A DNA stretch of 56,698 nucleotides from an uncultured Armatimonadales bacterium (GCA_964249345.1 CAXUBO010000008.1:1-56698); one strand, 5' to 3'. Positions 1,921-43,847 are shown, counted from the first letter of the stretch. Made by a program: numbers and translations. The notes: generated from the letters alone by a model not told the origin.

Positions 1921-1954
1921 GAAAACACGGATCAGGACGACACGGAGGCGCAAA

Positions 1955-15156: not shown

Positions 15157-15204
15157 TTTGTATCTGATTGTTCTATTAGATAGAGAGGTTTCAAGGGACC
15201 GACA

Positions 15205-27803: not shown

Positions 27804-27822
27804 GGAAGGGGAGCTTTCTGAA

Positions 27823-28576: not shown

Positions 28577-31500
28577 ATGTCCGTTCTTGCTGGGGCACCA
28601 TCTCAAGGCCAAATCGTTGAGTTGCGGCAGCGCCGCTACGTTGTCACCGATGTTGTCCCTTCGCTTTTGCCTGTCGCTTCAGCACCAATGGGCATAAGCC
28701 GCCCAGAGCATCTCGTCAGCTTGTCGTCAATCGAAGACGACGCACTTGGCGAGGAGTTGCAAGTGGTTTGGGAAATCGAGACAGGCGTAAGCGTTCAGGA
28801 GAAGCTGTCACTGCCTAATCCTCAAAACGGTTTTGATGCCCCGCACTATTTGGATGCCTTTTTAGATGCGGTACGCTGGGGAACTGGTTCCCAGGCAGAC
28901 CCGCGAACTTTGCAGTCTCCTTTTCGCAGCGGCATTGATATTCAGGATTATCAGCTTGAGCCGCTTGTTCGTGCGGTGCAAATGCCGCGAGCCAATCTGC
29001 TCATTGCGGATGACGTTGGGTTGGGCAAAACCATAGAAGCAGGCTTGGTCTGCCAAGAACTTATTCTGCGCCATCGCGCACGGCGCGTCCTCATTATTTG
29101 CCCTTCATCGATCCAAATTCAATGGCGCGACCAGATGCGCGATAAGTTCGGTCTGGAGTTCCGCACCGTTGACAGCGTGATGATGAAGGAACTCCGTCGC
29201 ACACGCGGCCTGCACGCAAACCCCTGGACTAGCTTTCCTCGGCTGATCGTTTCGATTGACTTTCTCAAGCGTGACCGGCCACTTCGGCTCCTCAAAGAGG
29301 CGCTTCCCGTCGATGGGCAACCGACTTACCCTCGACGCTGGGACCTCGTAATCGTGGATGAGGCGCACAATGTTGCCCCGGCCCGCAGTGGCCGGTATGC
29401 CACCGACTCACTGCGGACTCACGCTGTCCGTACACTCCTCCCGCACGTCGAGCATAAATTGTTCTTGACGGCGACGCCGCACAATGGGTACCCAGAAAGT
29501 TTCTCGGCGCTGTTGGAACTGCTTGATAATCAGCGGTTCGCCCGAGGCGTGCGGCCTGACAAAGAGCAGTTAGCCGCGGTCATGGTCCGCCGACTCAAGT
29601 CGGAACTGAAAGGGTGGGATGGTGCCCCCCGGTTTGCGGAGCGGAAACTTTATCCCCTGGAAGTTCATTACACCGATGCCGAGCGCCAGGCGCATCAATG
29701 GCTCCAGGAATATACGAAGTCGCGCTTGACACACGCCACAGATGAAGTGGAGCGATACGCGACGGAGTTCGTGCTGAAGCTGCTCAAGAAACGCTTGATT
29801 TCTTCCCCAGCGGCGTTTGCCTCGACACTGACGCAGCATGAGCAGTCGCTACGGAGCGCCGTCCGGCACCGCTCGGCGGCCCGGCCTACCGTCGGCATCC
29901 TTCGCCGTCAGGTAGATCAAGTGGAGGAGGACCATGCCGACGATGACTTGTTCGACGAGTCCACGTCGGACACCCTGGAAGCCGCCACCCGTCTGTTTCG
30001 CCCGCCGTCGCCTGAAGAAGAAGACTTGTTGCGGCAGCTTCGCCAGTGGAGCGACCGGACGCAGGGCACACCGGATAGTAAGGCACTGGCGCTGCTAGAC
30101 TGGCTGCGGATGGACCTAAAGCCTGACGGCATTTGGTCAGATCGTCGGGTCATCATATTCACGGAGTACCGTGCTACGCAGAAGTGGCTCCAAACGCTCT
30201 TGACCACTCAGGGGCTGGCGGAAGGTGCCAGTGACGACACTCGGCGGATGCTCCTAATTTATGGCGGGATGCCTCCTGATCAGCGGGAGAAAGTCAAAGC
30301 GGCTTTCCAGGCGGACCCGGCTGTGTCTGCCGTTCGCATTCTACTCGCGACGGATGCTGCCTCGGAGGGAATTGATCTTCAAAACCATTGCGCTCGCCTC
30401 ATCCACTACGAAATTCCGTGGAACCCAAATCGCATGGAGCAGCGAAACGGGCGGGTAGACCGTCACGGGCAGCGGGAATCGGAAGTCAAAATCTTCCATT
30501 TCGTTGGGGCAGGGTACGCGGCGCGTATGAAGAGCGCTGGGTCCGAGCCGCCGGGAGCACTGGAAGCCGACCTTGAGTTTCTCATGCGGGCGGCGACTAA
30601 AGTCGAAGCAATCCGAGAAGATTTGGGTAAGGTCGGTCCCGTCATCGCGGCTCAGGTTGAAGAAGCCATGCTCGGGCATCGCTTATATCTTGACACTGGG
30701 GCCGCAGAAAAACTCGCCGAACCGGTCCGTCAGATGCTTCGGCTGGAACGGCGGCTCCGGGAGCAGATTGCGTCATTTGCTTCCCAGCTTGATGAAACAC
30801 GGCATGACTTGAGGCTGACACCGGAGCACGTGCAGTCCGTAGTTGAAGTTGGCTTGGAACTTGCCGGAAAGCCGCCGCTGCGTGACGCGGTGTTGTCAGG
30901 TGTCTGGCCCGATCCACACGGAAGAGGAAAGCCTTGCCCCGTCTTCTGGCTGCCGCCGCTGGACGGAAGCTGGGCTGCCTGTGCCGATGGCCTTCGGCAT
31001 CCGCATACAGGCGTTCTGCGACCCATCACGTTTGATCACAATGTTGCCGCCGGGCGGGACGACGTGGTGCTGGCGCATCTCGGACATCGTTTGGTGCAGA
31101 TGTGCTTGCGCCTGCTTCGCGCTGAAATCTGGGCGTCCCACGCCAATTCTTCCGGTCATCTGCACCGGGTGACGGCCCGATTGCTTGCCGATTATCAGCT
31201 TGACGTCCCCGGTGTCGTGGCTTTCGGGCGCGTCGTTCTGCTTGGGTCTGATGGCAGCCGCCTTCATGAAGAAATTGTCGTGGCAGGAGGTGCGCTGAGG
31301 GATGGCCGATTTTCGCGCTTCAATGTGACCCAGGCCCAGTCCCTTATCAATGATGCTTTGCCAGGCGGCGTGCCGGAAGCCACTCAGCAAAAGCTGGCGT
31401 CGCTTTGGCCTAAACATGAGGCCGCACTGCAAACAGCCCTGGAAGCACGGGCATGGGAGCGTGTCCAGGGACTACAAAAGACGCTGTCCGACCGGGCGGA

Positions 31501-31804
31501 CAAAGAAGTCGCCGACATCCGGTCGGTCTTGACCGAGTTGGCAAATACGATCAAGTCTGAACTCAATGCGCCGGAACAAGCCCAGCTAGAACTCGAACTG
31601 TTTTCGGAGTCCGAAAAAGAGCAGTGGCAGCGGAACGTGGGCAGCTTGCGTGAACGGCTTGCACAAATCCCCGACGAAATCGAACGAGAGGTGGCGGCGA
31701 TCCGCGCCCGCTTTGACGCTCCGACCTGGCGGCTATTCCCGATGGCTGTATCTTACTTGGTGCCCGAAAAAATCGCCCGACAGACGGGCGGATTCACTTC
31801 ATGA
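28577..31804 (+). CDS. drmD: DISARM class 1 SNF2-family helicase
   Basis: DYQLEPLVRAV..LLIADDVGLGKTIEAGL, VIVDEAHNV, LLATDAASEGIDLQNHC..IPWNPNRMEQRNGRVDRHGQ. Context with drmMI/A/B/C. Confidence 0.85.
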   Translation: MSVLAGAPSQGQIVELRQRRYVVTDVVPSLLPVASAPMGISRPEHLVSLSSIEDDALGEELQVVWEIETGVSVQEKLSLPNPQNGFDAPHYLDAFLDAVRWGTGSQADPRTLQSPFRSGIDIQDYQLEPLVRAVQMPRANLLIADDVGLGKTIEAGLVCQELILRHRARRVLIICPSSIQIQWRDQMRDKFGLEFRTVDSVMMKELRRTRGLHANPWTSFPRLIVSIDFLKRDRPLRLLKEALPVDGQPTYPRRWDLVIVDEAHNVAPARSGRYATDSLRTHAVRTLLPHVEHKLFLTATPHNGYPESFSALLELLDNQRFARGVRPDKEQLAAVMVRRLKSELKGWDGAPRFAERKLYPLEVHYTDAERQAHQWLQEYTKSRLTHATDEVERYATEFVLKLLKKRLISSPAAFASTLTQHEQSLRSAVRHRSAARPTVGILRRQVDQVEEDHADDDLFDESTSDTLEAATRLFRPPSPEEEDLLRQLRQWSDRTQGTPDSKALALLDWLRMDLKPDGIWSDRRVIIFTEYRATQKWLQTLLTTQGLAEGASDDTRRMLLIYGGMPPDQREKVKAAFQADPAVSAVRILLATDAASEGIDLQNHCARLIHYEIPWNPNRMEQRNGRVDRHGQRESEVKIFHFVGAGYAARMKSAGSEPPGALEADLEFLMRAATKVEAIREDLGKVGPVIAAQVEEAMLGHRLYLDTGAAEKLAEPVRQMLRLERRLREQIASFASQLDETRHDLRLTPEHVQSVVEVGLELAGKPPLRDAVLSGVWPDPHGRGKPCPVFWLPPLDGSWAACADGLRHPHTGVLRPITFDHNVAAGRDDVVLAHLGHRLVQMCLRLLRAEIWASHANSSGHLHRVTARLLADYQLDVPGVVAFGRVVLLGSDGSRLHEEIVVAGGALRDGRFSRFNVTQAQSLINDALPGGVPEATQQKLASLWPKHEAALQTALEARAWERVQGLQKTLSDRADKEVADIRSVLTELANTIKSELNAPEQAQLELELFSESEKEQWQRNVGSLRERLAQIPDEIEREVAAIRARFDAPTWRLFPMAVSYLVPEKIARQTGGFTS

Positions 31805-34800
31805 GTATTTCACGACATCATGCCGAGTGGCTCTCACTGACCGAGACTTCCGGCCCGTTTCTTTCCATGCCGGTTCTGCTGCGCGTTTTCCCGCAGGAAC
31901 TGGATGGGCTTGACACCACTCTTGCCCGGCGGCTGCGCTTGGCATTCGAGGAGTGGGAAGAAAATCAGGAACATCACACGCCGGACCCTGCTATCCACAA
32001 TGCCTGGATTCGCTTTGTGCTGACGGAGGCGCTTGGGTTCCCGGCAGAGGAAGTGCTGGTGGAAGGGCAGGGGGTCCCGGACAGCCTGCGTGTCCAGGTC
32101 CCGGCGCACGTCGAGCGCCTCAAACCGGACATGATAGTTGTGGTTCCTGCCAGAGAATCGGAGTCCGGGACGCCGCGCCTGCTGATTTCCACCTATCCAC
32201 GCTCACAGAATCTGGCCCATCCGGTAGACGGGCGGGCGTGGAAGGCTTCGCCCGCCACCCGCATGACCGACCTGCTGCGCGGCACCGGCATCAAAGTCGG
32301 CTTGGTGACCAATGGCGAGCAATGGATGCTTGTCAGCAACTGCGCGGACAGCACGGGATATGCGTCTTGGTTCGCTTCGCTCTGGCGCGAAGAACCGCTG
32401 ACCCTGCGTGCTTTCCTATCGCTTCTCGGGGTGCGCCGGTTCTTTGGCGTCGCGCCGGATGACACGCTTTCGGCTTTGCTGACTGAAAGCGCCAGCGACC
32501 AGACCGAGATCACCGATCAGCTTGGCTACCAGGTCCGTAAAGCGGTCGAAGTGCTGGTGCAGGCGATTGACCGCATTGACAAAGATTGGGGCCGCACCCT
32601 TCTGCATGGCGCGGATGAAAAGCAGCTTTACGAAGCGGCGCTGACGACGATGATGCGGCTCGTGTTCCTGTTCAGCGCCGAGGAGCGGGGTCTGCTGCCG
32701 CTAGACGATGATTTGTACAGCCTGTCTTACGCGGCTTCGACGCTACGGGCGCAGCTTCGCGAGGCGGCGGACCAGAGCGGCGAGGAAGTCTTGGAGCGCC
32801 GCTGCGATGCGTGGAGCCGCCTGCTGGCGACCTTCCGCGCTGTCTACGGCGGCGTGCAGCATGAGGCGATGCGGTTGCCCGCATATGGCGGAAACCTGTT
32901 CAACCCGGACCGCTTCCCCTTCCTTGAAGGCCGCTCGGCGGGAACAAGCTGGCGAGAGACGCCTGCCCAGCCGCTGCCAATCCACAACCGGACCGTTTTG
33001 CACCTGCTGGAAGCGCTGCAAATTCTGCAAGTGAAAGTGCCGGGCGGCGGGCCTGCTGAGGCGCGGCGGCTGTCGTTTCGCGCCCTGGACATTGAGCAGA
33101 TCGGGCACGTCTACGAGGGCCTGCTGGACCATACGGCTGTCCGGGCTGAGGAACCGGTGCTGGGGCTTGCCGGGACGAAGGACCGGGAGCCGGAAGTCCC
33201 GCTGTCCAAGCTGGAAGAAGTCAAAGCAAAGGACGCGGCAGGTCTGCTGCGCTTTTTGCATGAAGCGACGGGGCGCGGCGTCAATGCGCTGACGAAGGCT
33301 CTCGCGGCGGGCGTGGGGTTGGATAACGAACATGATTTGCATATTGCCTGCGACAACAATGACGCTCTGTATGAACGGGTGATGCCGTTTGCGGGCTTGC
33401 TGCGGCTGGACACGTCCGGTGCCCCCGTCGTCATCACGAAAAATAGTGTTTATGTCACCGCCGGAACCGACCGGCGCTCGACGGGAACCCATTACACGCC
33501 GCGTTCGCTGACCGCCCCGATTGTGAAGCGGACGCTGGACCCGCTGCTGTACCGGGGTATGGCGGAAGGCGTCGAGCCTTGCGCCGAGACCCTGCGCTCG
33601 CCACGGGAAATCCTCGCGCTCAAGGTCTGCGACATGACGACGGGGTCTGGCGCGTTCTTGGTGCAGGGCAGCCGCTACCTGGCCGAGCGTCTGGTGGAGG
33701 CTTGGGAAGCCATCGAAGAAGCGAACCCCGATCTTATTTTGGTCACTCCTGAAGGCGATTTGTCCGAAGGGATGCCTCACGAGCGCTTGATCCCCACCGA
33801 CCCGGAAGAGCGGCTTGTCATCGCCCGCCGCCTGATCGTAGACCGCTGCCTGTACGGCGTGGATGTCAACCCAATGGCGGTGGAGATGGCGAAGCTGTCC
33901 CTGTGGCTCGTCACGATGGAGCGGCAGCGCCCGTTCACCTTTCTGGATCACGCAATCAAATGCGGGGACTCGCTCGTCGGCATGGATGCGGCTCAACTTG
34001 GCACCTGGTCACTGGATCGTCAGTCCCGCGACGCGCTCGGCGTCTTCACGAACCGCAGCATCGCCGATGCGTTGGAGTTCCGTCTGCTGTTGCGGCAGAT
34101 GGAAGAGCGGTCCATTGTTGATGTGAACGAAAAGGCGCGGCTCCACGCGCTGGCGGAAACGGCGATGACGCGGGCAAAGCTGGCTGCCGACCTGATTGTC
34201 GCCCCGGCGCTTCACTACTTGAAGCCTGCCGACCAGAAGAAAGAGCGGGAACGTCTGCGGGCGTCTTATGCCGCGCTTGACCCTGTGATCAATGACCCTC
34301 TGCTGCGGACGCGGGCGGACGAGATGCTGGGCCGGGTAAAGCCGTTCCACTGGCCGCTGGAGTTCCCGGAAGTCTTCAACGGCGGCAGGGAGGCCGGTTT
34401 TGATGCCATCATTGGCAACCCGCCGTTTATGGGCGGCCAGAAGATCACCGGCGAGTACGGCGTTCCGTACCGCGAGTATCTGGTCAATGTGATTGGTCAC
34501 GGCGTCAAAGGCAGTGCCGACATTGTGGCCTATTTTCATCTGCGCGGCTTTGAACTTGTCCGGCCCGGCGGCATCTTCGGCCTCATCGCCACGAACACGA
34601 TTGCTCAGGGCGATTCGCGGGAAGTCGGCCTGGATCAAATTATTGCGGGAGGCGGCCAGATCATCGAAGCCATTCCTTCAATGAAATGGCCGGGCGTCGC
34701 GAACCTGGAAATTGCCGTCACGAGCATCTATGTCGGTGATTGGAAGGCGTGCCGCAAACTTAACGGGCGCTGCGTAGACCTCATTTCCGCCTTTCTTGAT

Positions 34801-36522
34801 GATGGCCTGTCGAGCGGCAATCCTCTCCGGCTGAAGGAAAACGCTAATATCGCCTTCAAAGGAGTGGAAGTAAATGGTATGGGGTTTGTTCTCGAACCTG
34901 TGGAAGCAAATGCTTTAATCTCAAAAGATGCTCGGAACAAAGAAGTCATGTTTCCATACTTGAACGGTGATGATTTAAACTCTCGGCCTGATCAGTCAGC
35001 ATCACGCTGGGTAATCAATTTCAACGGGCGAGAACTGGAAAATGCTGAGAAATACTATGATTGTATGAAAATTGTTCATAGCCGAGTCAAGCCTGAACGA
35101 GATATAAATGCAGACCGGAACTTGCGCCAGAATTGGTGGAAGTTCAAAAGACCTGCTCCTGAACTGGCGAAATCAACAATAGGTTTGTCGAAGGTTTTAG
35201 TTCGGTCATCGGTCAGCAACATTCATTCCATAGCGTTTGTTGATACTGGCATTATTTGCTCTCATGCAACTATCGTTTTTGCTTCTTCAAGCCTATATTT
35301 TTTTGTTCTTATTCAGTCTTCGATACACACAATTTGGCTTACACTGTATTCATCCAGTATGCGTACTGATACTCGTTATACTCCTTCGGACTGCTTCGAA
35401 ACATTCCCGTTCCCGGCGGCTGATGACGCTAAGCAACAGGCTGAACTCGAACGCATCGGTGAGGCTTACTACGAACACCGGCGCGTCCTGATGCTGACTC
35501 GGCAAATCGGCCTGACAAAAGCCTACAATCTTTTCCATGACCCGGCCTGCACCGATGCCGACATTGCCGAACTGCGCCGCCTGCACGCCGAAATGGACAC
35601 CGCTGTCCGGGATGCTTACGGCTGGCAGGACTTGCCGCTCGGCCACGGTTTCTACGGCGACGGCAAGGAAACCCGCTTCACGCTCGCGCCTGCCGCCAAG
35701 CAGGAAGTCCTGCGCCGCCTGCTCAAACTCAACCTTGAGTGTGCCGCCGAAGAAGCGGCTGAGGTAGCAGCCGCCGTGCCGGTCAAGAAGGCCAGAAAAG
35801 GCAAAGCCGTCGTGGGTCAGACCTCAACGGACGATCTGATGATCGAAGCCATTGTCGCAGACAAAACTGGCGAAGGCAAAGCAGCGCGTCTTCCGAAGGC
35901 AGCCCTGGTTCAGGACGAAGACATCGAGCCGAGCATTCTCGCCTGGCTGGTCGCCCGCGAAAATGCACCTGAACTTGTGGAGCGTTTCCGGCCCGAGACT
36001 TTTGTGCCGAAGACATACAAACCGGACATCAGCCCGCTTCATAGCACCCGTCTTGCCAAAGAAGAATACAGCTTGCAGAAGATGGCTGGGATACCCGTGG
36101 GCGCGTCCTACCGGCGTGCGAACTGGGGGCCGCTATCCGAGTCTTTTTATAACGCCGTCCGCCGTGCGGAGGAACTCGGCTGGCTGATAAAGACGAGCGA
36201 TGGGCGCAGTGATTCCTATAGACTCGGCCCGAACGCAGCAGCGGGGATCGAAATTGCCGCAAAGGTTCTCGGCGACCGGATGCAGCAGGCCGAAGATATT
36301 CTCAGGTATATGGACGGTGATAGGACGCTCGATCTGGAACAGCAAGCGACAGTCCATAAAGTCTGGGACGACCTGAAAGCCGCAGGGATGACCGCAAACC
36401 AAGAGGCGGTCGTGCGAGGGGTGCAAGCCTGGAAGCCGGATCGCAAGGGCTTCACGTCCGGCGAAATCAGGATCGCACTGAAAGACTTGAGCAATAGAGG
36501 GCTGCTGAAACGGTCTGTTTGA
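31801..36522 (+). CDS. drmMI: DISARM class 1 N6-adenine DNA methyltransferase (Eco57I/MmeI/PglX-like, 1573 aa)
   Basis: ATGA overlap with drmD. AdoMet motif VCDMTTGSGAFLVQG; catalytic IIGNPPFMGGQK; MmeI-like FPYLNGDDLNSRP..RWVINF segment; long winged-helix-like C-terminal extension. Confidence 0.85.
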   Translation: MSISRHHAEWLSLTETSGPFLSMPVLLRVFPQELDGLDTTLARRLRLAFEEWEENQEHHTPDPAIHNAWIRFVLTEALGFPAEEVLVEGQGVPDSLRVQVPAHVERLKPDMIVVVPARESESGTPRLLISTYPRSQNLAHPVDGRAWKASPATRMTDLLRGTGIKVGLVTNGEQWMLVSNCADSTGYASWFASLWREEPLTLRAFLSLLGVRRFFGVAPDDTLSALLTESASDQTEITDQLGYQVRKAVEVLVQAIDRIDKDWGRTLLHGADEKQLYEAALTTMMRLVFLFSAEERGLLPLDDDLYSLSYAASTLRAQLREAADQSGEEVLERRCDAWSRLLATFRAVYGGVQHEAMRLPAYGGNLFNPDRFPFLEGRSAGTSWRETPAQPLPIHNRTVLHLLEALQILQVKVPGGGPAEARRLSFRALDIEQIGHVYEGLLDHTAVRAEEPVLGLAGTKDREPEVPLSKLEEVKAKDAAGLLRFLHEATGRGVNALTKALAAGVGLDNEHDLHIACDNNDALYERVMPFAGLLRLDTSGAPVVITKNSVYVTAGTDRRSTGTHYTPRSLTAPIVKRTLDPLLYRGMAEGVEPCAETLRSPREILALKVCDMTTGSGAFLVQGSRYLAERLVEAWEAIEEANPDLILVTPEGDLSEGMPHERLIPTDPEERLVIARRLIVDRCLYGVDVNPMAVEMAKLSLWLVTMERQRPFTFLDHAIKCGDSLVGMDAAQLGTWSLDRQSRDALGVFTNRSIADALEFRLLLRQMEERSIVDVNEKARLHALAETAMTRAKLAADLIVAPALHYLKPADQKKERERLRASYAALDPVINDPLLRTRADEMLGRVKPFHWPLEFPEVFNGGREAGFDAIIGNPPFMGGQKITGEYGVPYREYLVNVIGHGVKGSADIVAYFHLRGFELVRPGGIFGLIATNTIAQGDSREVGLDQIIAGGGQIIEAIPSMKWPGVANLEIAVTSIYVGDWKACRKLNGRCVDLISAFLDDGLSSGNPLRLKENANIAFKGVEVNGMGFVLEPVEANALISKDARNKEVMFPYLNGDDLNSRPDQSASRWVINFNGRELENAEKYYDCMKIVHSRVKPERDINADRNLRQNWWKFKRPAPELAKSTIGLSKVLVRSSVSNIHSIAFVDTGIICSHATIVFASSSLYFFVLIQSSIHTIWLTLYSSSMRTDTRYTPSDCFETFPFPAADDAKQQAELERIGEAYYEHRRVLMLTRQIGLTKAYNLFHDPACTDADIAELRRLHAEMDTAVRDAYGWQDLPLGHGFYGDGKETRFTLAPAAKQEVLRRLLKLNLECAAEEAAEVAAAVPVKKARKGKAVVGQTSTDDLMIEAIVADKTGEGKAARLPKAALVQDEDIEPSILAWLVARENAPELVERFRPETFVPKTYKPDISPLHSTRLAKEEYSLQKMAGIPVGASYRRANWGPLSESFYNAVRRAEELGWLIKTSDGRSDSYRLGPNAAAGIEIAAKVLGDRMQQAEDILRYMDGDRTLDLEQQATVHKVWDDLKAAGMTANQEAVVRGVQAWKPDRKGFTSGEIRIALKDLSNRGLLKRSV

Positions 36523-36541
36523 CCCGGTTTCGCGGGTTTTG
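36522..36541 (+). terminator. Weak hairpin plus T-run just after drmMI
   Basis: ACCCG-GTTTCG-CGGGT-TTTGT. The stem is only 5 bp, so this is tentative. Confidence 0.25.
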
Positions 36542-36638
36542 TCTCACCAGATGAGAAAAACCAAAGTTACCATCTCCGAAAAGTGAAAAGATAGTAATTC
36601 CGGTATGCAGGCAGGGCATAATATAAGGAGAAGCTAAG

Positions 36639-37592
36639 TTGCCCGACGTGTTTCCAATTGTTTTTGTCCCAGACAACGCCCGTGACTTGGTCGAGCAAAT
36701 GGGCAGCAAGGAAAAGTTTTGGTACGAAGACGCAGAACTGGGATTATGTCTTTATAAGGCTGCTCGGCCCGGCACTGGGGAAGATTGGTCGGAAAAAGTT
36801 GCCGAACAGCTTGCGGCTGTTTTGGGTTTGCCTCATGCAAAGTACGAATTGGCGGCATGGAAAGACGCGCGGACTGGGGAAAACACTCATGGTGTCACTT
36901 CCCCAACGCTTGTACCGAATGGGGGCCGCTTAGTGCCCGGCAACGAACTACTCGTCGCACATATACAAAGCTATCCAAGCACAGACGATGCGCCGCGCTA
37001 CGGACTGCGGCAATACACACCGGATACCGTGATGGCTTTGATGCAGCAGGCGAATGTCGGTCTGCCGCCGGGCTGGAATGCCCCCTCCGAAATCGAGACA
37101 CCCGCGGATTTGTTTCTGGGCTATTTGTTTTTGGATGCTTGGATCGGCAATACGGATCGGCACCACGAGAACTGGGCCTTTATCGAGCAGGCGCAAGAAT
37201 GCGCAATGCCGCGCTACTTGGCTCCTACCTATGATCATGCTTCTTGTTTAGGACGCAATGAAAGCGATGCAAAACGAGAAGAGCGTTTGAGAACCCGAGA
37301 CAAGCGTGTATCAGTCGCAAGCTATGCCCAGAAAGCAAAGTCCGCACTGTACGGCGCGGAAACGGATCGTAAACCACTCTTAGCAGCGGAAGCGTTCCGC
37401 CGTGCCGCGTCTGTAAGACCGCAGGCGGCCCGCGTTTGGCAGGAGCGGCTGCAAGCAGTAACGCAGGAAGAGGTTTCGGCGATCTTTGAGCGCGTTCCAT
37501 TGGAGCGTATGTCACCGCTGGCGTCCGAGTTCGCGCAAGTGATGCTGCAAGAGAACAGCCGTATGCTGATTTCTTTTAGGGAAAACCTATGA
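36639..37592 (+). CDS. HipA-family serine/threonine kinase core lacking the HipA N-terminal subdomain (HipT-like, 317 aa)
   Basis: TTG start 8 nt after AAGGAG. GSKEKFWY near the N-terminus; catalytic FLDAWIGNTDRHHENWAF; LAPTYDHASCLG. Confidence 0.75.
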   Translation: MPDVFPIVFVPDNARDLVEQMGSKEKFWYEDAELGLCLYKAARPGTGEDWSEKVAEQLAAVLGLPHAKYELAAWKDARTGENTHGVTSPTLVPNGGRLVPGNELLVAHIQSYPSTDDAPRYGLRQYTPDTVMALMQQANVGLPPGWNAPSEIETPADLFLGYLFLDAWIGNTDRHHENWAFIEQAQECAMPRYLAPTYDHASCLGRNESDAKREERLRTRDKRVSVASYAQKAKSALYGAETDRKPLLAAEAFRRAASVRPQAARVWQERLQAVTQEEVSAIFERVPLERMSPLASEFAQVMLQENSRMLISFRENL

Positions 37593-38353
37593 AACATTTA
37601 TTCCTCGCTTGGCAAGACCCAGGCACCTCACGGCGATGGTATCCCATCGGCAGATTGACCGAAACAGACGGATGCTATCAATTTGTTTATACGCAAGGAG
37701 CGTTCGAAGCACAGCAGGCGGGTTTCTGTCCGCTACCGTCCTTCCCGGACCTGAACGCTACCTACGAGTCAACGCAGCTTTTTCCTCTGTTCTCCAATAG
37801 AGTATTGTCCCCTACACGGCCTGATTACGCAGAGTTTGCCGAATGGCTGAGTCTGCCGGCGGGCGAAGACAACCCGTTTGCTCTGCTCGCCCGTAGCGGC
37901 GGGAAGCGGGCAACGGACACACTTGCCGTTTTCCCCTGCCCTGAGAAGGACGCGGAGGGGCTTTACCACATCCATCTGTTTATCCACGGTCTCAGCCACA
38001 TGACACCGGGCGCGATCACGCGGGCTGAAACTCTTGTGCCTGGCGAAATGCTGCTTGTGATGCCGGACATTCAGAATCCAAAAGAGCCACAGGCGTTAAT
38101 GGTACGGACTGCCGAAATGTTTCCCGGTGATCTGTCGCTGCTCGGTTACTTCCCACAGTACCTCATTGATGACTTGGCACATCTACTAAAAACCTCCGAC
38201 GATCAGCCGGGAGCAATCAAAGTAGTGGTGGAGCGCGTCAATCCGGTTCCAGCCCCCGTGCAGTTCCGTCTTCTGTGCTGCGTCTCCATGAAATGGCCGG
38301 AAGGGTTCAGACCATTTGCTTCTCCCTCTTATCAGCCCATCACGCCCCAATAA
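37589..38353 (+). CDS. HipA-N-subdomain/HipS-like domain fused to a HIRAN-like domain (254 aa)
   Basis: ATGA overlap with the kinase gene. N-terminal WYPIGRL..YQFVYT..CPLPSFPDL..LFPLFSNRVL parallels the recalled HipA N-terminus (VGEL..FKY..PLSLSLPL..FFDNLLPD). C-terminal GEMLLVMPDIQNPKEPQALMV..LLGYFPQYLIDDLAHLL fits the HIRAN pattern. Confidence 0.55.
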   Translation: MKHLFLAWQDPGTSRRWYPIGRLTETDGCYQFVYTQGAFEAQQAGFCPLPSFPDLNATYESTQLFPLFSNRVLSPTRPDYAEFAEWLSLPAGEDNPFALLARSGGKRATDTLAVFPCPEKDAEGLYHIHLFIHGLSHMTPGAITRAETLVPGEMLLVMPDIQNPKEPQALMVRTAEMFPGDLSLLGYFPQYLIDDLAHLLKTSDDQPGAIKVVVERVNPVPAPVQFRLLCCVSMKWPEGFRPFASPSYQPITPQ

Positions 38354-38364
38354 AAGAAAGCACT

Positions 38365-41300
38365 ATGAGCCAGCCACAGCCTGAACAACCCGGAAGCAAG
38401 GCAGTTGAGTCTGAGCCGCTTCTCGCGCAAAATATCCTCTCCCCCGCCACCATGCGAGCGGAACTCCTCGAAATCGTCAGTCGCGACTTGCTTGGTCCCG
38501 CTGGTGGCCCCGACGAAGAAATTCATGAGCGCAATGTCCGGGACCGGTACGTTGTCGGAATGCTGGCTCCGAAACACCGGGTTCTGGAGCCAGAAGACGA
38601 TGAAGAACTAGCGGAAGGCGGCCCCGGCACTCCCGAGGATGGCCCGACTGATACCGGTACGCTCCAGGCACCAACCATGTTGCCTTCCACGCTGGGCATG
38701 ACATTCTGCGTGGATGGATCGGCACAGGCGCTCACGCTCACCGTCCGCTGGGGCCAGTATGCCCGAACGGAGTCGCAAAGAACCTTCAACCAGAAAACAG
38801 GGCAGCCTGCCCGCGTTTGGAAGAGGCAGCAGATCGAGGCGGTCTCGACGATTCCGCTAGTGCGAGGTCGCTTAAAGCCCTGGATACCGTCCGAACTGCA
38901 CCCTGAAGTTGCCATTCGTGGCATCGCCCGGAAGCGCGACGGCGATCCCGACTGGACCATCAGTGTTTTCTTGGTAAATGCCCAGCAGGAGCCGAAAGAA
39001 AACCGCGACGCCACATGGCTGTTCCAGCCGGAAATCGTAGTAGAAGGCACGGAGGGAGACGCGGTCTTCACCCGGCGAGGCACTCGCCGCACCCAGGGGA
39101 TGATGGACGTTGACGTGTTCGCTGAACTGAAGGGGCTGGAGATGGTCTACCGGCACCATGTCGAGTTCGCGGTCGGGTACGGTGTTTCCGTTCATGCGAA
39201 CACGGCGGATGATCCCACTCGCGCCGTGCGTCTGGCGACCCGAGTTATCCCAGTTCAGGAAACGGCGCGGGCCGTGCCGCCGAGCGCTGTTGATATTCCA
39301 GCACTCGGCGGCCTCGTCTTGGATATGAAGGTCTTGTCAGAAACCGAAGACACAGACTTTCTTGCTGTGCTCGGGCCATTGACAGATGCCTACACGCAGT
39401 GGATCAAAGGGCAAGCGAAACGGGTTGATGAGCCAAATACGGGGTTAGGCGCATACCGTGAATCTGCGGCGGAAGCTATTACAAAGTGTCAGCAGGCACG
39501 GAAGCGTATTCAAGAAGGCATTGATCTTCTGGCAGTAAATCCGCAGGCCGCTGAGGCATTTCGGTTTCTAAACCGTGCCATGTGGCAGCAGCGCGTCCAT
39601 TCGCTCTTTTCGGAGCGGGTGCGCCGGGGCGAGGCGGCAGAACTTGATCAAGTCGACATCCCGCCGAACCGGACCTGGTATCCGTTCCAGTTAGCTTTCA
39701 TTCTGCTCAATCTCCCCGCGATGACCGACCTGAACCACGCCGACCGCAGCGACTCCGTAAACGCCGTTGCTGACCTCTTGTGGTTTCCTACAGGCGGCGG
39801 CAAGAGTGAAGCCTACCTCGGCCTAACGGCGTACACCCTCGGCATCCGCCGCCTGCAGGGAAAAGTGGAAGGGCGATCCGGCGAGTATGGGGTTGCTGTG
39901 CTGATGCGCTACACATTGCGGCTTCTGACCTTGCAGCAATTCCAGCGTGCCACCGCGCTGATCTGCGCCTGCGAGAGTCTGCGGCGCGAGGCCATGCAGG
40001 CCGGAGACACGCGCTGGGGCAAGACGCCGTTCCGAATTGGTCTCTGGGTCGGCAACAAGACCACCCCGAACTCCACGGCTCAAAGTGATGAAGCCGTTCT
40101 GCTCCGACATGAGATGAACAAGCGCACGGGAACCGGTGATCCGGCTCAGCTTACGAACTGTCCCTGGTGCGGTAAGCCTATCGAGGCCGGAAAGAACATC
40201 AGAGTTGATAAAGTGCGCGGCAGGACGCTGATTTTTTGCGGAGACACGCTAGGCCGCTGCCTGTTCTCCGAGCCGAAGTCGCCTGGCGAAGGGCTGCCGG
40301 TCCTCGTGGTGGATGAAGAAATCTACCGTCAGCTTCCCTCGCTTTTGATTGCAACCGTGGACAAATTTGCCCAGATGCCCTGGAACGGCATCACGCAAAT
40401 GCTGTTCGGGAAGGTCAACGGCTACTGTCCTCGGCACGGGTTCCGCTCCCCGGATTTAGAAGACAAGGACTCTCACGTCGCCATTGGAGCCTTTCCTGCT
40501 GCGAGAACAGTGCCGCACGGCCCGCTGCGCCCGCCTGACTTGATTATCCAGGATGAACTACACCTGATCTCCGGGCCGCTCGGAACTTTGGTTGGATTAT
40601 ATGAAACGGCAGTGGATTACCTCTGCACCTGGACAGTCGCCGGTCAGGCCGTTCGCCCAAAGGTCATCGCCTCCACAGCAACCATTCGCAATTCGAGACT
40701 TCAGGTTCTGCAAACCTTCCGCCGCCGGGTAAGCGTATTCCCTCCGCAGGGGCTGGATGTGGAAGATAATTTCTTTTCCATCCAGCATCCGCCGACCGAT
40801 GACCAGCCGGGACGGTTATACATGGGCATCTGTGCACCAGGTAAGAGATTAAAAGCTGTGCTACTGCGCGTTTACCTGGCTCAACTGGCTGCGGGGCAGC
40901 GTCTGTATGAGAAATACGGGGAGCGGGCCGACCCGTGGATGACGCTCGTTGGATATTTCAACTCCATGCGTGAACTCGGCGGAATGCGCCGTCTTGTTGA
41001 TGATGAAATTCGTCTTGGCCTAAGCCGCATTGATCGCCGGGGCTTGCCAACCCGCAAGATCGGCGAACCGGAAGAACTTACGTCCCGCCGCAACTCTGCC
41101 GATATTCCTCTCATCTTGGACCGCATGGAAAAGCCGTTCAGTCCGAACGGGAAAGGTATTCGCCCTATCGACGTGCTGCTCGCGACAAATATGCTTTCAG
41201 TAGGTGTGGATGTGCGTCGTCTTGGTCTTATGGTTGTCGCCAACCAGCCGAAGACGACAGCAGAGTATATTCAAGCAACCAGCCGTGTCGGTCGCACCTT

Positions 41301-41913
41301 CCCTGGCTTAGTCTGCACCGTCATGAACTGGGCGAGGCCGCGAGACCTTTCCCATTACGAGCAGTTCGAGCATTACCATGATACATTTTATCAATATGTG
41401 GAAGCCCTTTCCGTGACACCATTCGCCGAACGTGCCTTAGACCGCGGCCTCGCGGCGCTCCTCGTCGCCAGCATTCGGCTAGAGGCCAGCGATTATAATG
41501 GAAACCTGCGTGCCGCTGATCTTGACCCAAAGAATCCATTAGTAGTCGAAGCAATTGAAGCCATTGCTCGCCGTGCTGGCGAGGTTGGTTCTCAGGAAAC
41601 AGAGGCGCGAGTACGCGCAGACCTGGCAGCACTGATTGATTTTTGGCGGGCACGAGCACAGAAAACGAGTGGCGGCGCACGCCTTGGCTACATGGAAAAG
41701 AAGGACGGACAGACACTTGGCTTACTCCAGGCAACAGATGCGGGGCCATGGCAAGACTTTACGTGCCTCAATTCCCTGCGGGACGTGGAGCCGATGGTGA
41801 ATCTTGTGCTGGATAATCATGGTCTGGACGACGGTGATCCGATTGCCGCGGTAATGGCAGGTGCACCTGAACCAGATGCCGAAGATGCGGAAGACGAAGG
41901 CGGTGAAGCATGA
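38365..41913 (+). CDS. drmA: DISARM helicase
   Basis: Start at ATG 38365 (MSQPQPEQ), after the upstream stop. LLWFPTGGGKSEAYLGL (Walker A), LIIQDELHLISGPLG (DExH), TTAEYIQATSRVGR (motif VI). Context. Confidence 0.85.
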   Translation: MSQPQPEQPGSKAVESEPLLAQNILSPATMRAELLEIVSRDLLGPAGGPDEEIHERNVRDRYVVGMLAPKHRVLEPEDDEELAEGGPGTPEDGPTDTGTLQAPTMLPSTLGMTFCVDGSAQALTLTVRWGQYARTESQRTFNQKTGQPARVWKRQQIEAVSTIPLVRGRLKPWIPSELHPEVAIRGIARKRDGDPDWTISVFLVNAQQEPKENRDATWLFQPEIVVEGTEGDAVFTRRGTRRTQGMMDVDVFAELKGLEMVYRHHVEFAVGYGVSVHANTADDPTRAVRLATRVIPVQETARAVPPSAVDIPALGGLVLDMKVLSETEDTDFLAVLGPLTDAYTQWIKGQAKRVDEPNTGLGAYRESAAEAITKCQQARKRIQEGIDLLAVNPQAAEAFRFLNRAMWQQRVHSLFSERVRRGEAAELDQVDIPPNRTWYPFQLAFILLNLPAMTDLNHADRSDSVNAVADLLWFPTGGGKSEAYLGLTAYTLGIRRLQGKVEGRSGEYGVAVLMRYTLRLLTLQQFQRATALICACESLRREAMQAGDTRWGKTPFRIGLWVGNKTTPNSTAQSDEAVLLRHEMNKRTGTGDPAQLTNCPWCGKPIEAGKNIRVDKVRGRTLIFCGDTLGRCLFSEPKSPGEGLPVLVVDEEIYRQLPSLLIATVDKFAQMPWNGITQMLFGKVNGYCPRHGFRSPDLEDKDSHVAIGAFPAARTVPHGPLRPPDLIIQDELHLISGPLGTLVGLYETAVDYLCTWTVAGQAVRPKVIASTATIRNSRLQVLQTFRRRVSVFPPQGLDVEDNFFSIQHPPTDDQPGRLYMGICAPGKRLKAVLLRVYLAQLAAGQRLYEKYGERADPWMTLVGYFNSMRELGGMRRLVDDEIRLGLSRIDRRGLPTRKIGEPEELTSRRNSADIPLILDRMEKPFSPNGKGIRPIDVLLATNMLSVGVDVRRLGLMVVANQPKTTAEYIQATSRVGRTFPGLVCTVMNWARPRDLSHYEQFEHYHDTFYQYVEALSVTPFAERALDRGLAALLVASIRLEASDYNGNLRAADLDPKNPLVVEAIEAIARRAGEVGSQETEARVRADLAALIDFWRARAQKTSGGARLGYMEKKDGQTLGLLQATDAGPWQDFTCLNSLRDVEPMVNLVLDNHGLDDGDPIAAVMAGAPEPDAEDAEDEGGEA

Positions 41914-43847
41914 AAAACGCAGGATGGAACCGAACGAACAAGAGTAAGTACCAAGGCACCTCATACTCCGCCGGTAATGTTTTTGAGAAGACGACGGTGG
42001 GTGAACTGCGCCCCAGTCAGATGTTATACACTTTTGGTGTTGGGGCTATCGTTGACCTCCCGAAGATCGCCGCGATGGTGATGGGCCTCGATGATTGGGA
42101 CCTCGCTTATTGTGTGCCTATCGAAGAAGACCGGCTTCTGGCTGCAGTCCGCTTGACGGTTGGGGATCAAGTGCAATCACTTCGAATGCCGCCACTGAAA
42201 CCGGAAACCGGTCCTCCAGGGTCGGTGAGCGAAAACTCACATATCGGCGTGCCAGTTGCGGCGTTCCCGCGCTGGATGGTTTGTCCTGTTTGTCGTCTGC
42301 TTTCATCTATTGGCTCTGGCTTATTTGAACTTCGGCCCAATTTGTTCCGCACGGAACGGACGTGTTACGTTCATGCGAACTGTCCAAGGCCGGGAAAGCC
42401 CCCCGAAGTGCTGCCAGTTCGGTTTCTGCTTGCCTGCAAGAACGGCCACCTCGACGATTTCCCTTGGCGGTGGTTCTGCCATGAAGGCCCGACGGAGTGC
42501 AAAGGTGCGCTTCGTCTTACAGATGTTGGGATTTCGGGTGAAGCGGCTGACATCATCGTGAAATGCGACGCCTGCTCGGCAAACCGCCGCCTATCGCACG
42601 CTTTCGGTGAAGATGCTTGGCAGAGTCTCCCACCGCAATGTTCAGGAAGGCGACCGCACCTGCGCGACTCCGACCCGGAACTCTGCGAGGAGCAAGTCAA
42701 ATGTATTTTGCTTGGAGCGTCTAATGCGTGGTTTCCGCTTACACTCTCCACCCTTTATCTTCCGGCGGCTGCCGACCCTCTCGGTCAGCTTGTTGATGAG
42801 TATTGGGCATCGCTTATGCCCATCACCGGTAAAAGCGTCTTAGACGCCTTTAAGGGTTTGCCAATGATGGCTGCCACGCTGGCCGCCTTCAGCCTTTACA
42901 GTGATGATGAGTTTCTTGCAGCAATCGAAGCGAAACGCAATCAGAGTTCGAGTACCAATAATCTTGAGGTGGCGGACATCAAGACGCCGGAATGGCGAAT
43001 GCTCTGTGAAGCCCATCCCGCCAAGAACGGCAGGGATTTTTTCCTAAGCCGTCATGATGCTCCTGAGGGTTACGAGAATCTGTTTGATCAGACCGTGCTT
43101 GTAGAAAGGCTCCGGGAAGTGAAAGCACTTGTCGGGTTCACACGGATTGAGTCGCCGGGAGAGTTCTCTGATGCCGATGAATTACCCGAAGAGCAGCGTG
43201 CTCCACTTTCCCGCAAGCCCCCGCTTTGGGTACCTGCTTCAGAAGTGCGGGGTGAAGGCATCTTCCTTAAGTTCAACGCGGCAGCCATTAGCACATGGGC
43301 CGCTCGGGCTGCGGTGCAGCAGCGTGGTGCAGCTTTTTTCAATACATATCAACAATGGCGGGCGGCACGAGGTCTTCCCGCAGACATTCATTTCCCTGGT
43401 ATGGGTTATATTCTGCTTCACTCATTCTCTCATGCTTTGATGCGCCAGCTTGTTCTGGAATGCGGCTACACCGCGGCAAGTATCCGAGAGCGTCTTTACT
43501 GGTCACCATCAGGAGCGGAAACAGAGCCGATGGCAGGCGTGCTGCTTTACACTGCCGCGCCAGATAGTGAAGGGACGCTTGGTGGTTTAGTCAGTCTTGG
43601 CAAGCCTAAAGTCCTAGGACGGCACATCGCGCAGGCGATGGAAATGATGCGGCTGTGCGCTTCTGATCCGCTTTGTGCAGAGCACGCGCCGCCGTCAGAC
43701 GGCGCGACACTGCACGGTGCATCCTGTCATGCCTGCCTCTTTGGGCCGGAGACTTCTTGCGAGCGGAGCAACAAGTTCTTGGACCGATCCGTTTTAGTAG
43801 CGACATTGGAAAATTCTGATCTTAGCTTCTTCCCGGAGAGGGATTGA
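41910..43847 (+). CDS. drmB: DISARM DUF1998-domain protein
   Basis: ATGA overlap with drmA. Cys-rich CPVCRLL, LACKNGHLDDFPWRWFCH and the C-terminal DUF1998 signature HGASCHACLFGPETSCERSNKFLDRS. Confidence 0.85.
   Translation: MKNAGWNRTNKSKYQGTSYSAGNVFEKTTVGELRPSQMLYTFGVGAIVDLPKIAAMVMGLDDWDLAYCVPIEEDRLLAAVRLTVGDQVQSLRMPPLKPETGPPGSVSENSHIGVPVAAFPRWMVCPVCRLLSSIGSGLFELRPNLFRTERTCYVHANCPRPGKPPEVLPVRFLLACKNGHLDDFPWRWFCHEGPTECKGALRLTDVGISGEAADIIVKCDACSANRRLSHAFGEDAWQSLPPQCSGRRPHLRDSDPELCEEQVKCILLGASNAWFPLTLSTLYLPAAADPLGQLVDEYWASLMPITGKSVLDAFKGLPMMAATLAAFSLYSDDEFLAAIEAKRNQSSSTNNLEVADIKTPEWRMLCEAHPAKNGRDFFLSRHDAPEGYENLFDQTVLVERLREVKALVGFTRIESPGEFSDADELPEEQRAPLSRKPPLWVPASEVRGEGIFLKFNAAAISTWAARAAVQQRGAAFFNTYQQWRAARGLPADIHFPGMGYILLHSFSHALMRQLVLECGYTAASIRERLYWSPSGAETEPMAGVLLYTAAPDSEGTLGGLVSLGKPKVLGRHIAQAMEMMRLCASDPLCAEHAPPSDGATLHGASCHACLFGPETSCERSNKFLDRSVLVATLENSDLSFFPERD

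What the first reader, a model, noticed from the sequence alone, without database searches (positions are those of the whole stretch)
36522..38353. Split HipA-like kinase plus a HipS-like/HIRAN fusion protein inserted in the middle of DISARM: possible DNA-end-sensing kinase switch
Two translationally coupled genes (ATGA at 37589-37592) lie between drmMI and drmA and are not canonical DISARM components. Gene 1 has the HipA kinase core (GSKEKFWY, DAWIGNTDRHHENWAF, LAPTYDHASCLG), but the Gly-rich motif sits at residue ~22. The ~100-aa N-terminal subdomain of HipA is therefore missing, as it is in HipT of the tripartite HipBST system. Gene 2 starts with a sequence that tracks the HipA N-subdomain/HipS antitoxin (WYPIGRL..YQFVYT..CPLPSFPDL..LFPLFSNRVL). 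It ends with a HIRAN-like module (GEMLLVMPDIQNPKEPQALMV..LLGYFPQYLIDDLAHLL), a domain known to bind 3' DNA ends and ssDNA. The cassette has its own AT-rich leader, a strong RBS with a TTG start, and a weak hairpin upstream. This architecture would tether the kinase-inhibiting HipS-like piece to a DNA-damage or DNA-end sensor. That suggests a kinase-mediated growth arrest triggered by phage DNA ends or by DISARM cleavage products. I know of no described defence system with this composition.
Basis: partly seen in the sequence, partly recalled or inferred. Interest (0 to 1): 0.8.

Follow-up and report, generated by a model that had tools for sequence, protein, structure and literature searches.

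The report
Known hipIN kinase cassette inside DISARM
The two genes are a real HipA-type kinase and a HipS-plus-HIRAN partner sitting inside a DISARM phage-defence operon, but this pair (hipIN, listed in PADLOC as candidate PDC-M03) and its proposed DNA-end-sensing mechanism were already published, and no one has yet tested what it does.

Summary
Two translationally coupled genes (36639-37592 and 37589-38353, ATGA overlap) lie between drmMI and drmA of a complete class 1 DISARM operon. Gene 1 is a 317-aa HipA-superfamily kinase that lacks N-subdomain 1 and has intact catalytic motifs. Gene 2 is an N-terminal HipS-fold domain plus a C-terminal HIRAN domain, and both calls hold at fold level. The novelty claim fails. 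This is the hipIN module (HipI kinase + HipN) of Gerdes et al. 2021, who also proposed that HIRAN senses phage DNA ends and triggers abortive infection. PADLOC lists it as PDC-M03 (E = 1e-111 and 8e-87), a candidate nominated because such cassettes sit inside BREX, DISARM or type I RM systems (Payne et al. 2024). I found no experimental test. Most hipIN copies are free-standing among housekeeping genes. The kinase is degraded or absent in about 35-40% of loci, while HipN stays intact and under purifying selection. A conserved palindrome and GGCATAAT box travel with the window's subclade. Verdict: an ordinary member of a known, uncharacterised family.

The parts
28577..31804 (+). drmD (SNF2 helicase), first gene of the class 1 DISARM operon that hosts the cassette
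   Evidence: PADLOC DrmD E=0, 1404 bits; Pfam SNF2-rel_dom and Helicase_C
31801..36522 (+). drmMI (MmeI/Eco57I-type methyltransferase, 1573 aa, with a ~230-aa C-terminal extension beyond the DrmMI profile)
   Evidence: PADLOC DrmMI E=0, profile matched over residues 2-1337; Pfam Eco57I, MmeI_TRD and MmeI_Mtase
36521..36545 (+). Hairpin GACCCG-N6-CGGGTT plus TTTTGTCT directly after the drmMI stop codon; a weak terminator or attenuator candidate
   Evidence: ViennaRNA dG -9.3 kcal/mol; not called by the terminator scan
36523..36638 (+). 116-nt AT-rich leader of hipI (44% GC)
36542..36556 (+). Palindrome TCTCA-N5-TGAGA, conserved in the window's hipIN subclade; candidate operator or RNA hairpin
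   Evidence: Conserved in L082 (DISARM-embedded) and L081 (free-standing), always 73-74 nt from the GGCATAAT box; no Rfam match; no covariation
36615..36622 (+). Conserved GGCATAAT box (-10-like) just upstream of the ribosome-binding site
36625..36630 (+). Shine-Dalgarno AAGGAG, 8 nt before the TTG start
36639..37592 (+). hipI: 317-aa HipA-superfamily Ser/Thr kinase core (PDC-M03A). Gly-rich loop G22-S23-K24-x-K26, K40, catalytic D173-R-H-x-x-N178, Mg-binding D199
   Evidence: PADLOC PDC-M03A 1.3e-111; Pfam HipA_C 2.9e-5, below the gathering score; family profile against PDB gives CtkA 3akj at 2.9e-12; invariant residues in a 31-sequence alignment
37589..37592 (+). ATGA stop/start overlap (translational coupling of hipI to hipN), kept in most homologous loci
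37589..37942 (+). hipN N-terminal domain (residues 1-118): HipS-like fold, equivalent to HipA N-subdomain 1
   Evidence: AF2 model pLDDT 81.9. The only significant Foldseek hits are HipS chains: 8ezr_A TM 0.79, 7ab3_B 0.77, 7vkb_B 0.72. Pfam Couple_hipA 22.0 bits against a gathering score of 22.5; 6 of 38 relatives match at E<=1e-3
37943..38353 (+). hipN C-terminal domain (residues ~119-254): HIRAN domain
   Evidence: Full-length AF2 model pLDDT 87.8. Foldseek hits HLTF HIRAN 4s0n/4xzg/5bnh and lp_0118 3k2y, E~1e-4, probability 1.0. Pfam HIRAN in 36 of 38 relatives, best 2e-11. PADLOC PDC-M03B 8.2e-87 for the whole protein
38365..41913 (+). drmA, starting 11 nt after the hipN stop codon
   Evidence: PADLOC DrmA E=0
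41910..43847 (+). drmB (DUF1998/MZB)
   Evidence: PADLOC DrmB 2.5e-78; Pfam MZB
43851..44645 (+). drmC (PLD nuclease)
   Evidence: PADLOC DrmC 3.5e-75; Pfam PLDc_2

Best explanation
The cassette is a member of the hipIN family (HipI kinase + HipN, PADLOC candidate PDC-M03). It is an autonomous two-gene, toxin-antitoxin-like module carried as embedded cargo at the drmMI|drmA junction of a class 1 DISARM operon and is most likely co-transcribed with it. Shown here: HipI is a short HipA-superfamily kinase with a complete active site and no N-subdomain 1. HipN carries that missing subdomain as a HipS-fold domain fused to a HIRAN domain. The two genes are translationally coupled. Inferred by analogy with HipBST: the HipS-like domain docks on HipI next to the Gly-rich loop and holds the kinase inactive. 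Hypothesis only, already published: the HIRAN domain binds free 3' or single-stranded DNA ends that appear during phage infection or DNA damage, and this releases the kinase. The kinase then phosphorylates an essential translation factor (HipA and HipT hit aminoacyl-tRNA synthetases) and arrests growth. The DISARM location is best read as hitch-hiking in a cargo hotspot, not as a dedicated DISARM component.
For: Identity: both PADLOC PDC-M03 models match end to end. The architecture matches the published hipIN description point for point (PMC8262856). Kinase: invariant G22, K24, K26, K40, D173, R174, H175, N178, D199 and H200 across 31 homologues; the profile hits the HipA-fold kinase CtkA at 2.9e-12. 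HipS fold: only HipS chains are significant; how HipS inhibits HipT is known (PMC10627512). HIRAN. Coupling: the ATGA overlap and gene order hold in most of 80 genome loci. Toxin-like behaviour: HipI is degraded in 23 and absent in 9 of 80 genome loci while HipN is intact in 79; in metagenome contigs 19 of 55 lack a full kinase. Autonomy: about 90% of loci have no DISARM within 10 kb, and the closest relatives L081 and L083 are free-standing. Cargo hotspot: other embedded loci carry a short pAgo system, a patatin-like protein, and ResIII and UvrD helicases at the same junction. A leader palindrome and box travel with the cassette whether or not it is embedded.
Against: No experiment on any hipIN module was found. 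Toxicity, neutralisation, DNA binding and any phage phenotype are therefore all untested. Flanking genes of free-standing copies are mostly housekeeping (PfkB, DUF6391, RnfD-like) and few hit PADLOC, so defence-island association is weak. HipN has dN/dS of about 0.15 with or without an intact kinase, which a pure antitoxin role does not predict. The window proteins fall just below the Pfam gathering scores for HipA_C, Couple_hipA and HIRAN.
Confidence: 0.78

Rival explanations
1. hipIN is a functional accessory of DISARM. HipN's HIRAN domain senses the DNA ends that DrmABC produces on unmethylated phage DNA, or ends that persist when DISARM fails, and fires the kinase as a second, abortive layer of defence.
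For: hipIN sits at the same drmMI|drmA junction, on the same strand, in the window, in L082, in 5-6 of 80 genome loci and in about 6 of 49 informative metagenome contigs. The embedded copies fall in two divergent HipN clades. In the window drmA starts 11 nt after the hipN stop codon, and in L082 the two genes overlap. The window and L082 share 60-70% identity across DrmD, DrmMI, HipI, HipN and DrmA, as expected for inheritance as one block.
Against: About 90% of hipIN loci lack DISARM nearby, and relatives just as close to the window (L081, L083) are free-standing. The same junction holds unrelated cargo such as pAgo, patatin and helicases. Embedding of independent systems is a general phenomenon. 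Nothing beyond co-location links HIRAN to DISARM products.
Confidence: 0.1
2. hipIN is a classical addiction or persistence-type toxin-antitoxin module with no direct role against phages. Inside DISARM it only stabilises the island or is selfish cargo.
For: HipA-family modules are established toxin-antitoxin systems. The kinase is repeatedly lost while the partner is kept. Free-standing copies sit in conserved housekeeping synteny in Nostocales with few defence neighbours. Only one distant relative was found on viral contigs.
Against: A HIRAN DNA-end-binding domain has no obvious role in plain addiction. Recurrent embedding in DISARM, next to pAgo and other defence genes, argues for a conflict-related role. 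The two readings are not mutually exclusive.
Confidence: 0.2
3. HipN has its own function that does not depend on the kinase, for example as a DNA-end-binding or repair factor, or as a DNA-binding autoregulator that replaces HipB. HipI then modulates HipN rather than acting as a toxin.
For: HipN is intact in 79 of 80 loci, although 32 lack an intact kinase. HipN dN/dS is 0.154 in kinase-less pairs and 0.144 in kinase-intact pairs. No HTH gene accompanies the pair. A conserved palindrome lies in the leader.
Against: The loci were found through HipN, so HipN integrity is partly an ascertainment effect. Kinase losses may be recent and independent, which would leave dN/dS dominated by ancestral branches. 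HIRAN domains are known to bind DNA ends, not specific duplex operators. The palindrome is limited to one subclade.
Confidence: 0.12

Closest known systems
hipIN modules (HipI kinase + HipN), Gerdes, Baerentsen and Brodersen 2021, mBio (PMC8262856)
   Same: Short kinase of about 280-320 aa without N-subdomain 1 and with the Gly-rich loop near the N-terminus. A downstream gene encodes HipS-like + HIRAN. The published hypothesis is that HIRAN senses phage DNA ends and activates the kinase for abortive infection. One HipI subclade is described as mixed Proteobacteria and Cyanobacteria, in line with the relatives found here.
   Different: Nothing architectural. That paper listed only 14 modules and did not mention DISARM. 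Here the family reaches 556 clusters (50% identity) at E<=1e-30 and is partly DISARM-embedded.
PADLOC phage-defence candidate PDC-M03 (Payne et al. 2024, bioRxiv 10.1101/2024.01.29.577857)
   Same: Both proteins match the PDC-M03A and PDC-M03B models end to end. PDCs were defined from cassettes embedded in BREX, DISARM or type I RM systems, which is exactly the situation in the window.
   Different: None. The paper's main text does not describe the domains of PDC-M03 and reports no test of it.
HipBST tripartite toxin-antitoxin system (E. coli O127:H6; Legionella pneumophila)
   Same: The HipA kinase is split: the kinase core is one protein and N-subdomain 1 is a separate ~100-aa HipS-fold protein that acts as antitoxin. 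The predicted HipN N-domain superposes on HipS at TM 0.72-0.79.
   Different: There is no HipB HTH gene. The HipS-like unit lies downstream of the kinase, not upstream, and is fused to HIRAN. HipI belongs to the distant clade XI branch; by sequence its profile finds CtkA but not HipT or HipA. The target is unknown (HipT targets TrpS).
HipL kinases (kinase-HipS-HIRAN fused in one protein; Gerdes 2021)
   Same: The same three domains in the same order.
   Different: HipL is a single polypeptide. Here there are two translationally coupled genes. No fused form appeared among the top 150 family representatives.
CtkA (Helicobacter pylori JHP0940, PDB 3AKJ)
   Same: The nearest solved structure by sequence: a ~325-aa HipA-fold Ser/Thr kinase core with the same DRHxxN and D-x-x-S motifs.
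   Different: CtkA is a secreted pro-inflammatory kinase with no HipS- or HIRAN-type partner.
HLTF/Rad5 HIRAN domain
   Same: The fold and the N-x-x-D-x-x-A and G-Y motifs. HLTF HIRAN binds 3'-OH DNA ends, according to the literature cited in PMC8262856.
   Different: Sequence identity is only 17-20%. In the window the conserved Asp of the family consensus QNPxDP is Glu (QNPKEP). DNA binding by HipN is untested.

Membership tests
hipIN (Gerdes 2021) | Short kinase (279-321 aa) lacking HipA N-subdomain 1, with the Gly-rich loop near the N-terminus | tested here: met
   317 aa; G22-S23-K24-E25-K26; the start codon agrees with 30 homologues
hipIN (Gerdes 2021) | Conserved Hip kinase core motifs (Gly-rich loop, catalytic DxHxxN, Mg-binding Asp) | tested here: met
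   D173-R-H-H-E-N178, D199 and K40 are invariant in alignment A3. The activation loop was not mapped separately.
hipIN (Gerdes 2021) | [quoted passage not shown] | tested here: met
   Foldseek of the isolated N-domain model gives only HipS chains as significant hits. Pfam Couple_hipA is borderline at 22.0 against 22.5 bits.
hipIN (Gerdes 2021) | The same protein carries a C-terminal HIRAN domain | tested here: met
   Foldseek hits to HLTF HIRAN at probability 1.0; Pfam HIRAN in 36 of 38 relatives. The window protein alone scores 20.8 bits, below the gathering score of 24.7.
hipIN (Gerdes 2021) | [quoted passage not shown] | not tested
PADLOC PDC-M03 | Adjacent same-strand genes matching the PDC-M03A and PDC-M03B models | tested here: met
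   1.3e-111 (residues 4-314 on profile positions 4-302 of 305) and 8.2e-87 (residues 1-251 on 1-242 of 245)
Pfam HipA_C (PF07804) | Score at or above the gathering threshold of 30.5 bits | tested here: not met
   24.3 bits, E=2.9e-5, matching only the catalytic segment 160-226. HipI is a distant branch of the superfamily, not a canonical HipA.
HipBST tripartite toxin-antitoxin system | Three genes hipB-hipS-hipT, with an HTH HipB and HipS upstream of the kinase | tested here: not met
   There is no ORF in the 116-nt leader and the upstream gene is drmMI. The HipS-like unit is downstream and fused to HIRAN.
Type II toxin-antitoxin system | The toxin arrests growth and the cognate protein neutralises it by direct binding | not testable with these tools
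   Indirect only: recurrent kinase decay with HipN retained, and translational coupling.
Anti-phage defence system | Expression confers protection against phage | not testable with these tools
   No published test was found. Support comes from embedding only. Free-standing copies are mostly outside defence islands.
DISARM class 1 (host operon) | drmD, drmMI, drmA, drmB and drmC present, on the same strand and intact | tested here: met
   hipI and hipN match no DISARM model and are not canonical DISARM components.

The most novel reading that the evidence does not exclude
hipIN is not mere cargo but works together with DISARM. Its HIRAN domain reads 3' or single-stranded DNA ends created, or left unresolved, by DrmABC on invading DNA. 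The cell then switches from targeted DNA interference to kinase-driven growth arrest. The recurrent, position-specific and translationally linked insertion at drmMI|drmA in two divergent lineages would be the genomic trace of this.
Probability: 0.1. Interest if true: 0.7.

Novelty: already known. Interest (0 to 1): 0.3.

Why it matters
As it stands the finding adds one more instance of a catalogued but uncharacterised candidate. Its practical value is as a well-defined test case. It is a compact two-gene module with a clear kinase active site, a HipS-fold inhibitor and a DNA-end-binding domain, sitting in its natural DISARM context. Showing that a Hip-family kinase is released by DNA ends would give the first trigger mechanism for this branch of HipA kinases and the first validated function for PDC-M03. 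The survey here also tempers the defence reading. Most copies are free-standing in housekeeping synteny. The kinase is often lost. HipN stays under selection without it, so HipN may have a role of its own.

Tried and rejected
1. A sequence profile of the HipN N-domain against PDB sequences found nothing, and the full-length profile found only lp_0118 at E=0.2. The HipS and HIRAN calls therefore rest on Pfam plus fold searches.
It was redone with rows taken from the protein search.
3. The sigma-70 promoter and terminator scan of 36300-38500 found nothing on the + strand.
4. Rfam found no family in the leader, and RNAalifold found no covariation.
5. I considered a hammerhead-like reading of 'CTGATGAG' in the leader and rejected it, because those core positions vary between relatives.
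6. The viral-contig scan gave one distant relative at 37% identity, so hipIN is not typically phage-borne.
7. HipL-type fusions were not seen among the top 150 representatives.
8. GC and GC3 of hipI and hipN (0.55-0.59) lie within the range of the DISARM genes, so composition gives no sign of recent insertion.
9. Literature searches for HipN, hipIN, PDC-M03 and HIRAN with phage and kinase terms found no experimental study.
10. The first dN/dS script timed out and was redone on the multiple alignment.

Full report
**Observation.** The window holds two same-strand ORFs, 36639-37592 (TTG start, 317 aa) and 37589-38353 (254 aa), which overlap in ATGA at 37589-37592. PADLOC identifies the surrounding genes as a complete class 1 DISARM operon. 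DrmD is at 28577-31804, DrmMI at 31801-36522, DrmA at 38365-41913, DrmB at 41910-43847 and DrmC at 43851-44645, with matching Pfam domains. The 116-nt leader is AT-rich (44% GC against 57.6% for the window). AAGGAG lies 8 nt before the TTG. A hairpin of -9.3 kcal/mol followed by a T-run comes directly after the drmMI stop codon. The consensus scan called no + strand promoter or terminator. drmA starts 11 nt after the hipN stop codon. GC3 of both genes falls within the range of the DISARM genes.

**Gene 1.** Pfam gives only a sub-threshold HipA_C hit (24.3 bits against a gathering score of 30.5) over the catalytic segment. PADLOC's PDC-M03A model matches end to end at 1.3e-111. In an alignment of 31 homologues, G22, K24, K26 (Gly-rich loop, with Ser or Thr at position 23 in every sequence), K40, D173-R174-H175, N178, D199 and H200 are invariant. 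The active site is therefore intact. The family profile finds one solved relative, the HipA-fold kinase CtkA of H. pylori, at 2.9e-12 over nearly the full length. It does not find HipA or HipT. That fits a distant branch of the Hip superfamily. With the Gly-rich loop at residue 22, the ~100-aa N-subdomain 1 of HipA is absent.

**Gene 2.** Pfam gives borderline Couple_hipA (22.0 bits against 22.5) and HIRAN (20.8 against 24.7) hits. PADLOC PDC-M03B matches at 8.2e-87. Among 38 relatives, 36 hit HIRAN (best 2e-11) and 6 hit Couple_hipA. An AlphaFold2 model of the whole protein (pLDDT 87.8) matches HLTF HIRAN structures and lp_0118 at probability 1.0. A separate model of residues 1-118 (pLDDT 81.9) matches only HipS antitoxins. 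These are Legionella HipS 8ezr_A (TM 0.79), E. coli O127 HipS 7ab3_B (0.77) and 7vkb_B (0.72), and everything else is noise. Sequence profiles against PDB sequences did not reach these targets.

**What is already known.** Gerdes, Baerentsen and Brodersen (2021, PMC8262856) describe this exact architecture as hipIN. HipI is a short kinase lacking N-subdomain 1. Downstream lies HipN, a HipS-like domain fused to HIRAN. A fused relative is called HipL. They state the hypothesis that HIRAN recognises the DNA ends of invading phages and so activates the kinase and triggers abortive infection. PADLOC's PDC models come from Payne et al. 2024 (bioRxiv 10.1101/2024.01.29.577857). [quoted passage not shown] PDC-M03 is its cassette CAS_00033, listed beside the figure 684 in the candidate table. 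A 2025 NAR paper (PMC11706625) notes HipI+HIRAN clusters next to deoxydinucleotide nucleases in Actinobacteria and still calls the function predicted. I found no experimental test of any hipIN module. The way HipS inhibits HipT, by wedging into the Gly-rich-loop pocket, is established for HipBST (PMC10627512) and is the basis for the inferred mechanism here.

**Distribution.** HipN relatives are numerous:
- 702 hits in the 90%-identity clustered database.
- 386 loci in species-representative genomes.
- 489 loci in JGI metagenomes.
- 556 clusters at 50% identity with E<=1e-30.

They occur mainly in Cyanobacteria, Acidobacteriota and Planctomycetota. Only one distant copy lies on a viral contig. 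In the 80 best genome loci HipI lies immediately upstream, usually with the same ATGA overlap.

**Embedding in DISARM.**
- hipIN lies between drmMI and drmA, on the same strand, in L026, L030, L041, L063 and L076, and probably in L031.
- The same holds in metagenome contigs L109, L117, L119, L136 and L149, and in L140, which resembles L041. That is about 6 of 49 contigs with informative flanks.
- It also holds in L082, one of the window's closest relatives with a long contig. L082 has drmD, drmMI, one minus-strand gene, hipI and hipN, then drmA overlapping the end of hipN.
- The window and L082 share 60-70% identity across DrmD, DrmMI, HipI, HipN and DrmA. This fits inheritance as one block.
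- Equally close relatives L081 and L083 are free-standing among metabolic genes.
- The cyanobacterial embedded copies form one HipN clade that is separate from the window's clade.
- The junction also carries other cargo. L041 has a short pAgo system and a second DrmD-like gene. L026 has a patatin-like protein, a ResIII helicase and a UvrD/NERD-type helicase.

The simplest reading is that the drmMI|drmA junction is a cargo hotspot, and hipIN is a mobile cassette that lands or persists there.

**Context outside DISARM.** I scanned 144 ORFs flanking hipIN in 36 genome loci with full flanks. The most frequent Pfam families were PfkB (19), DUF6391 (13), an RnfD-like family (8) and DUF2330 (7). This is a conserved Nostocales synteny. 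Few ORFs hit any PADLOC model. The sample is phylogenetically redundant. The window itself also carries an AbiJ-like gene and a helicase matching Mokosh MkoA and DpdJ models.

**Kinase decay.** HipN is an intact ORF in 79 of 80 genome loci. HipI is intact in 48, degraded in 23 and absent in 9. Two of the degraded cases are at contig edges, and about six are single frameshifts in MAGs that could be sequencing errors. In metagenome contigs, 19 of 55 lack a full kinase. The truncation patterns differ among closely related Nostoc loci, so the losses were repeated. This is what a costly toxin would show. HipN, however, has dN/dS of 0.154 in pairs that both lack the kinase and 0.144 in pairs that both keep it. 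HipN therefore remains constrained without its kinase. Either the losses are recent, or orphan HipN guards against other HipI copies, or HipN has a role of its own. Loci were found through HipN, so its integrity is partly an ascertainment effect.

**Leader element.** The palindrome TCTCA-N5-TGAGA (36542-36556) and the box GGCATAAT (36615-36622) are conserved at a fixed spacing of 73-74 nt in the window, L082 (embedded) and L081 (free-standing), and partly in L083. They are absent upstream of hipI in the other 65 loci examined. There is no Rfam match and no covariation. This supports a cassette-specific regulatory region in this subclade. What it does is unknown.

**Verdict.** The mechanism remains a hypothesis that was already in print. 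The claim of an undescribed composition is not supported. The locus is an ordinary member of the hipIN/PDC-M03 family riding inside DISARM. The most novel reading left open is real functional cooperation with DISARM, which I rate at about 10%.

Noticed in passing
window 36542-36556 and 36615-36622; L082 ~8948-9022; L081 ~8949-9030: The palindrome TCTCA-N5-TGAGA and a GGCATAAT box lie at a fixed 73-74 nt spacing upstream of hipI. Both are conserved between embedded and free-standing relatives whose HipN is only ~65% identical, and absent from the other hipIN clades. This may be an operator plus a -10-like element. There is no Rfam hit.
   Followed up: partly
L017, L018, L023, L029, L035-L037, L040, L043, L047, L050, L054, L057, L058, L060, L064, L065, L067, L072-L074, L080: Orphan or near-orphan hipN: the kinase is truncated or gone while HipN is intact and under purifying selection (dN/dS about 0.15, the same as in kinase-intact loci). 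Many of these loci sit at a conserved Nostocales position flanked by a PfkB kinase and a DUF6391 gene.
   Followed up: partly
L041:2723-5494: A short prokaryotic Argonaute system (an HNH-APAZ partner plus pAgo_I at 1e-138) lies between drmMI and hipIN in a Nodosilinea DISARM locus. A 702-aa unknown protein and a second DrmD-like SNF2 gene follow hipIN.
   Followed up: partly
L026:3645-8980 and 11005-16065: More cargo at the same DISARM junction in Leptolyngbya: an 804-aa unknown protein, a patatin-like phospholipase, a 149-aa ORF, then a ResIII/DEAD helicase (similar to PbeA and type IV REase models) and a UvrD/NERD-type helicase before drmA. A similar pair of ~912-aa and ~696-aa ORFs recurs in L030, and a ~700-aa ORF in L041; these were not scanned.
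   Followed up: partly
window 35820-36522 (DrmMI residues ~1340-1573): DrmMI has a ~230-aa C-terminal extension beyond the PADLOC DrmMI profile. It has a weak match to a type I specificity-subunit model (residues 1432-1551, E=1.8e-9). The extension is shared with L082, where the alignment runs to residue 1571.
   Followed up: no
window 26979-27803 and 27718-28455: A PD-(D/E)XK nuclease gene and an HNH_3/AP2-domain gene lie immediately upstream of drmD on the same strand. Neither matches a PADLOC model.
   Followed up: no
window 51582-52724 (-): An AbiJ-like protein (AbiJ_NTD4 + DUF7014, with a weak PDC-S32 hit) lies about 7 kb downstream of DISARM, so the region is rich in defence genes.
   Followed up: no
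window 1910-5182 (+): A 1090-aa protein matches the Mokosh MkoA and DpdJ helicase models of PADLOC (1.9e-31 and 8.7e-28).
   Followed up: no
window 24303-25007 (-): A SpoIIE/PP2C-type Ser/Thr phosphatase lies 11.6 kb upstream of the kinase on the opposite strand. There is no evidence of a link to HipI.
   Followed up: no
window 11350-15156 (+): A 1268-aa protein has a weak NACHT NTPase hit (8.8e-5, below the gathering score) and could be a STAND-type protein. It has no PADLOC match.
   Followed up: no
L001:7114-7755 (-): A PDC-M05A (Polbeta nucleotidyltransferase) candidate lies 1.3 kb upstream of the free-standing hipIN of an Acidobacteriota MAG. It is one of the few defence-type neighbours seen.
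   Followed up: no
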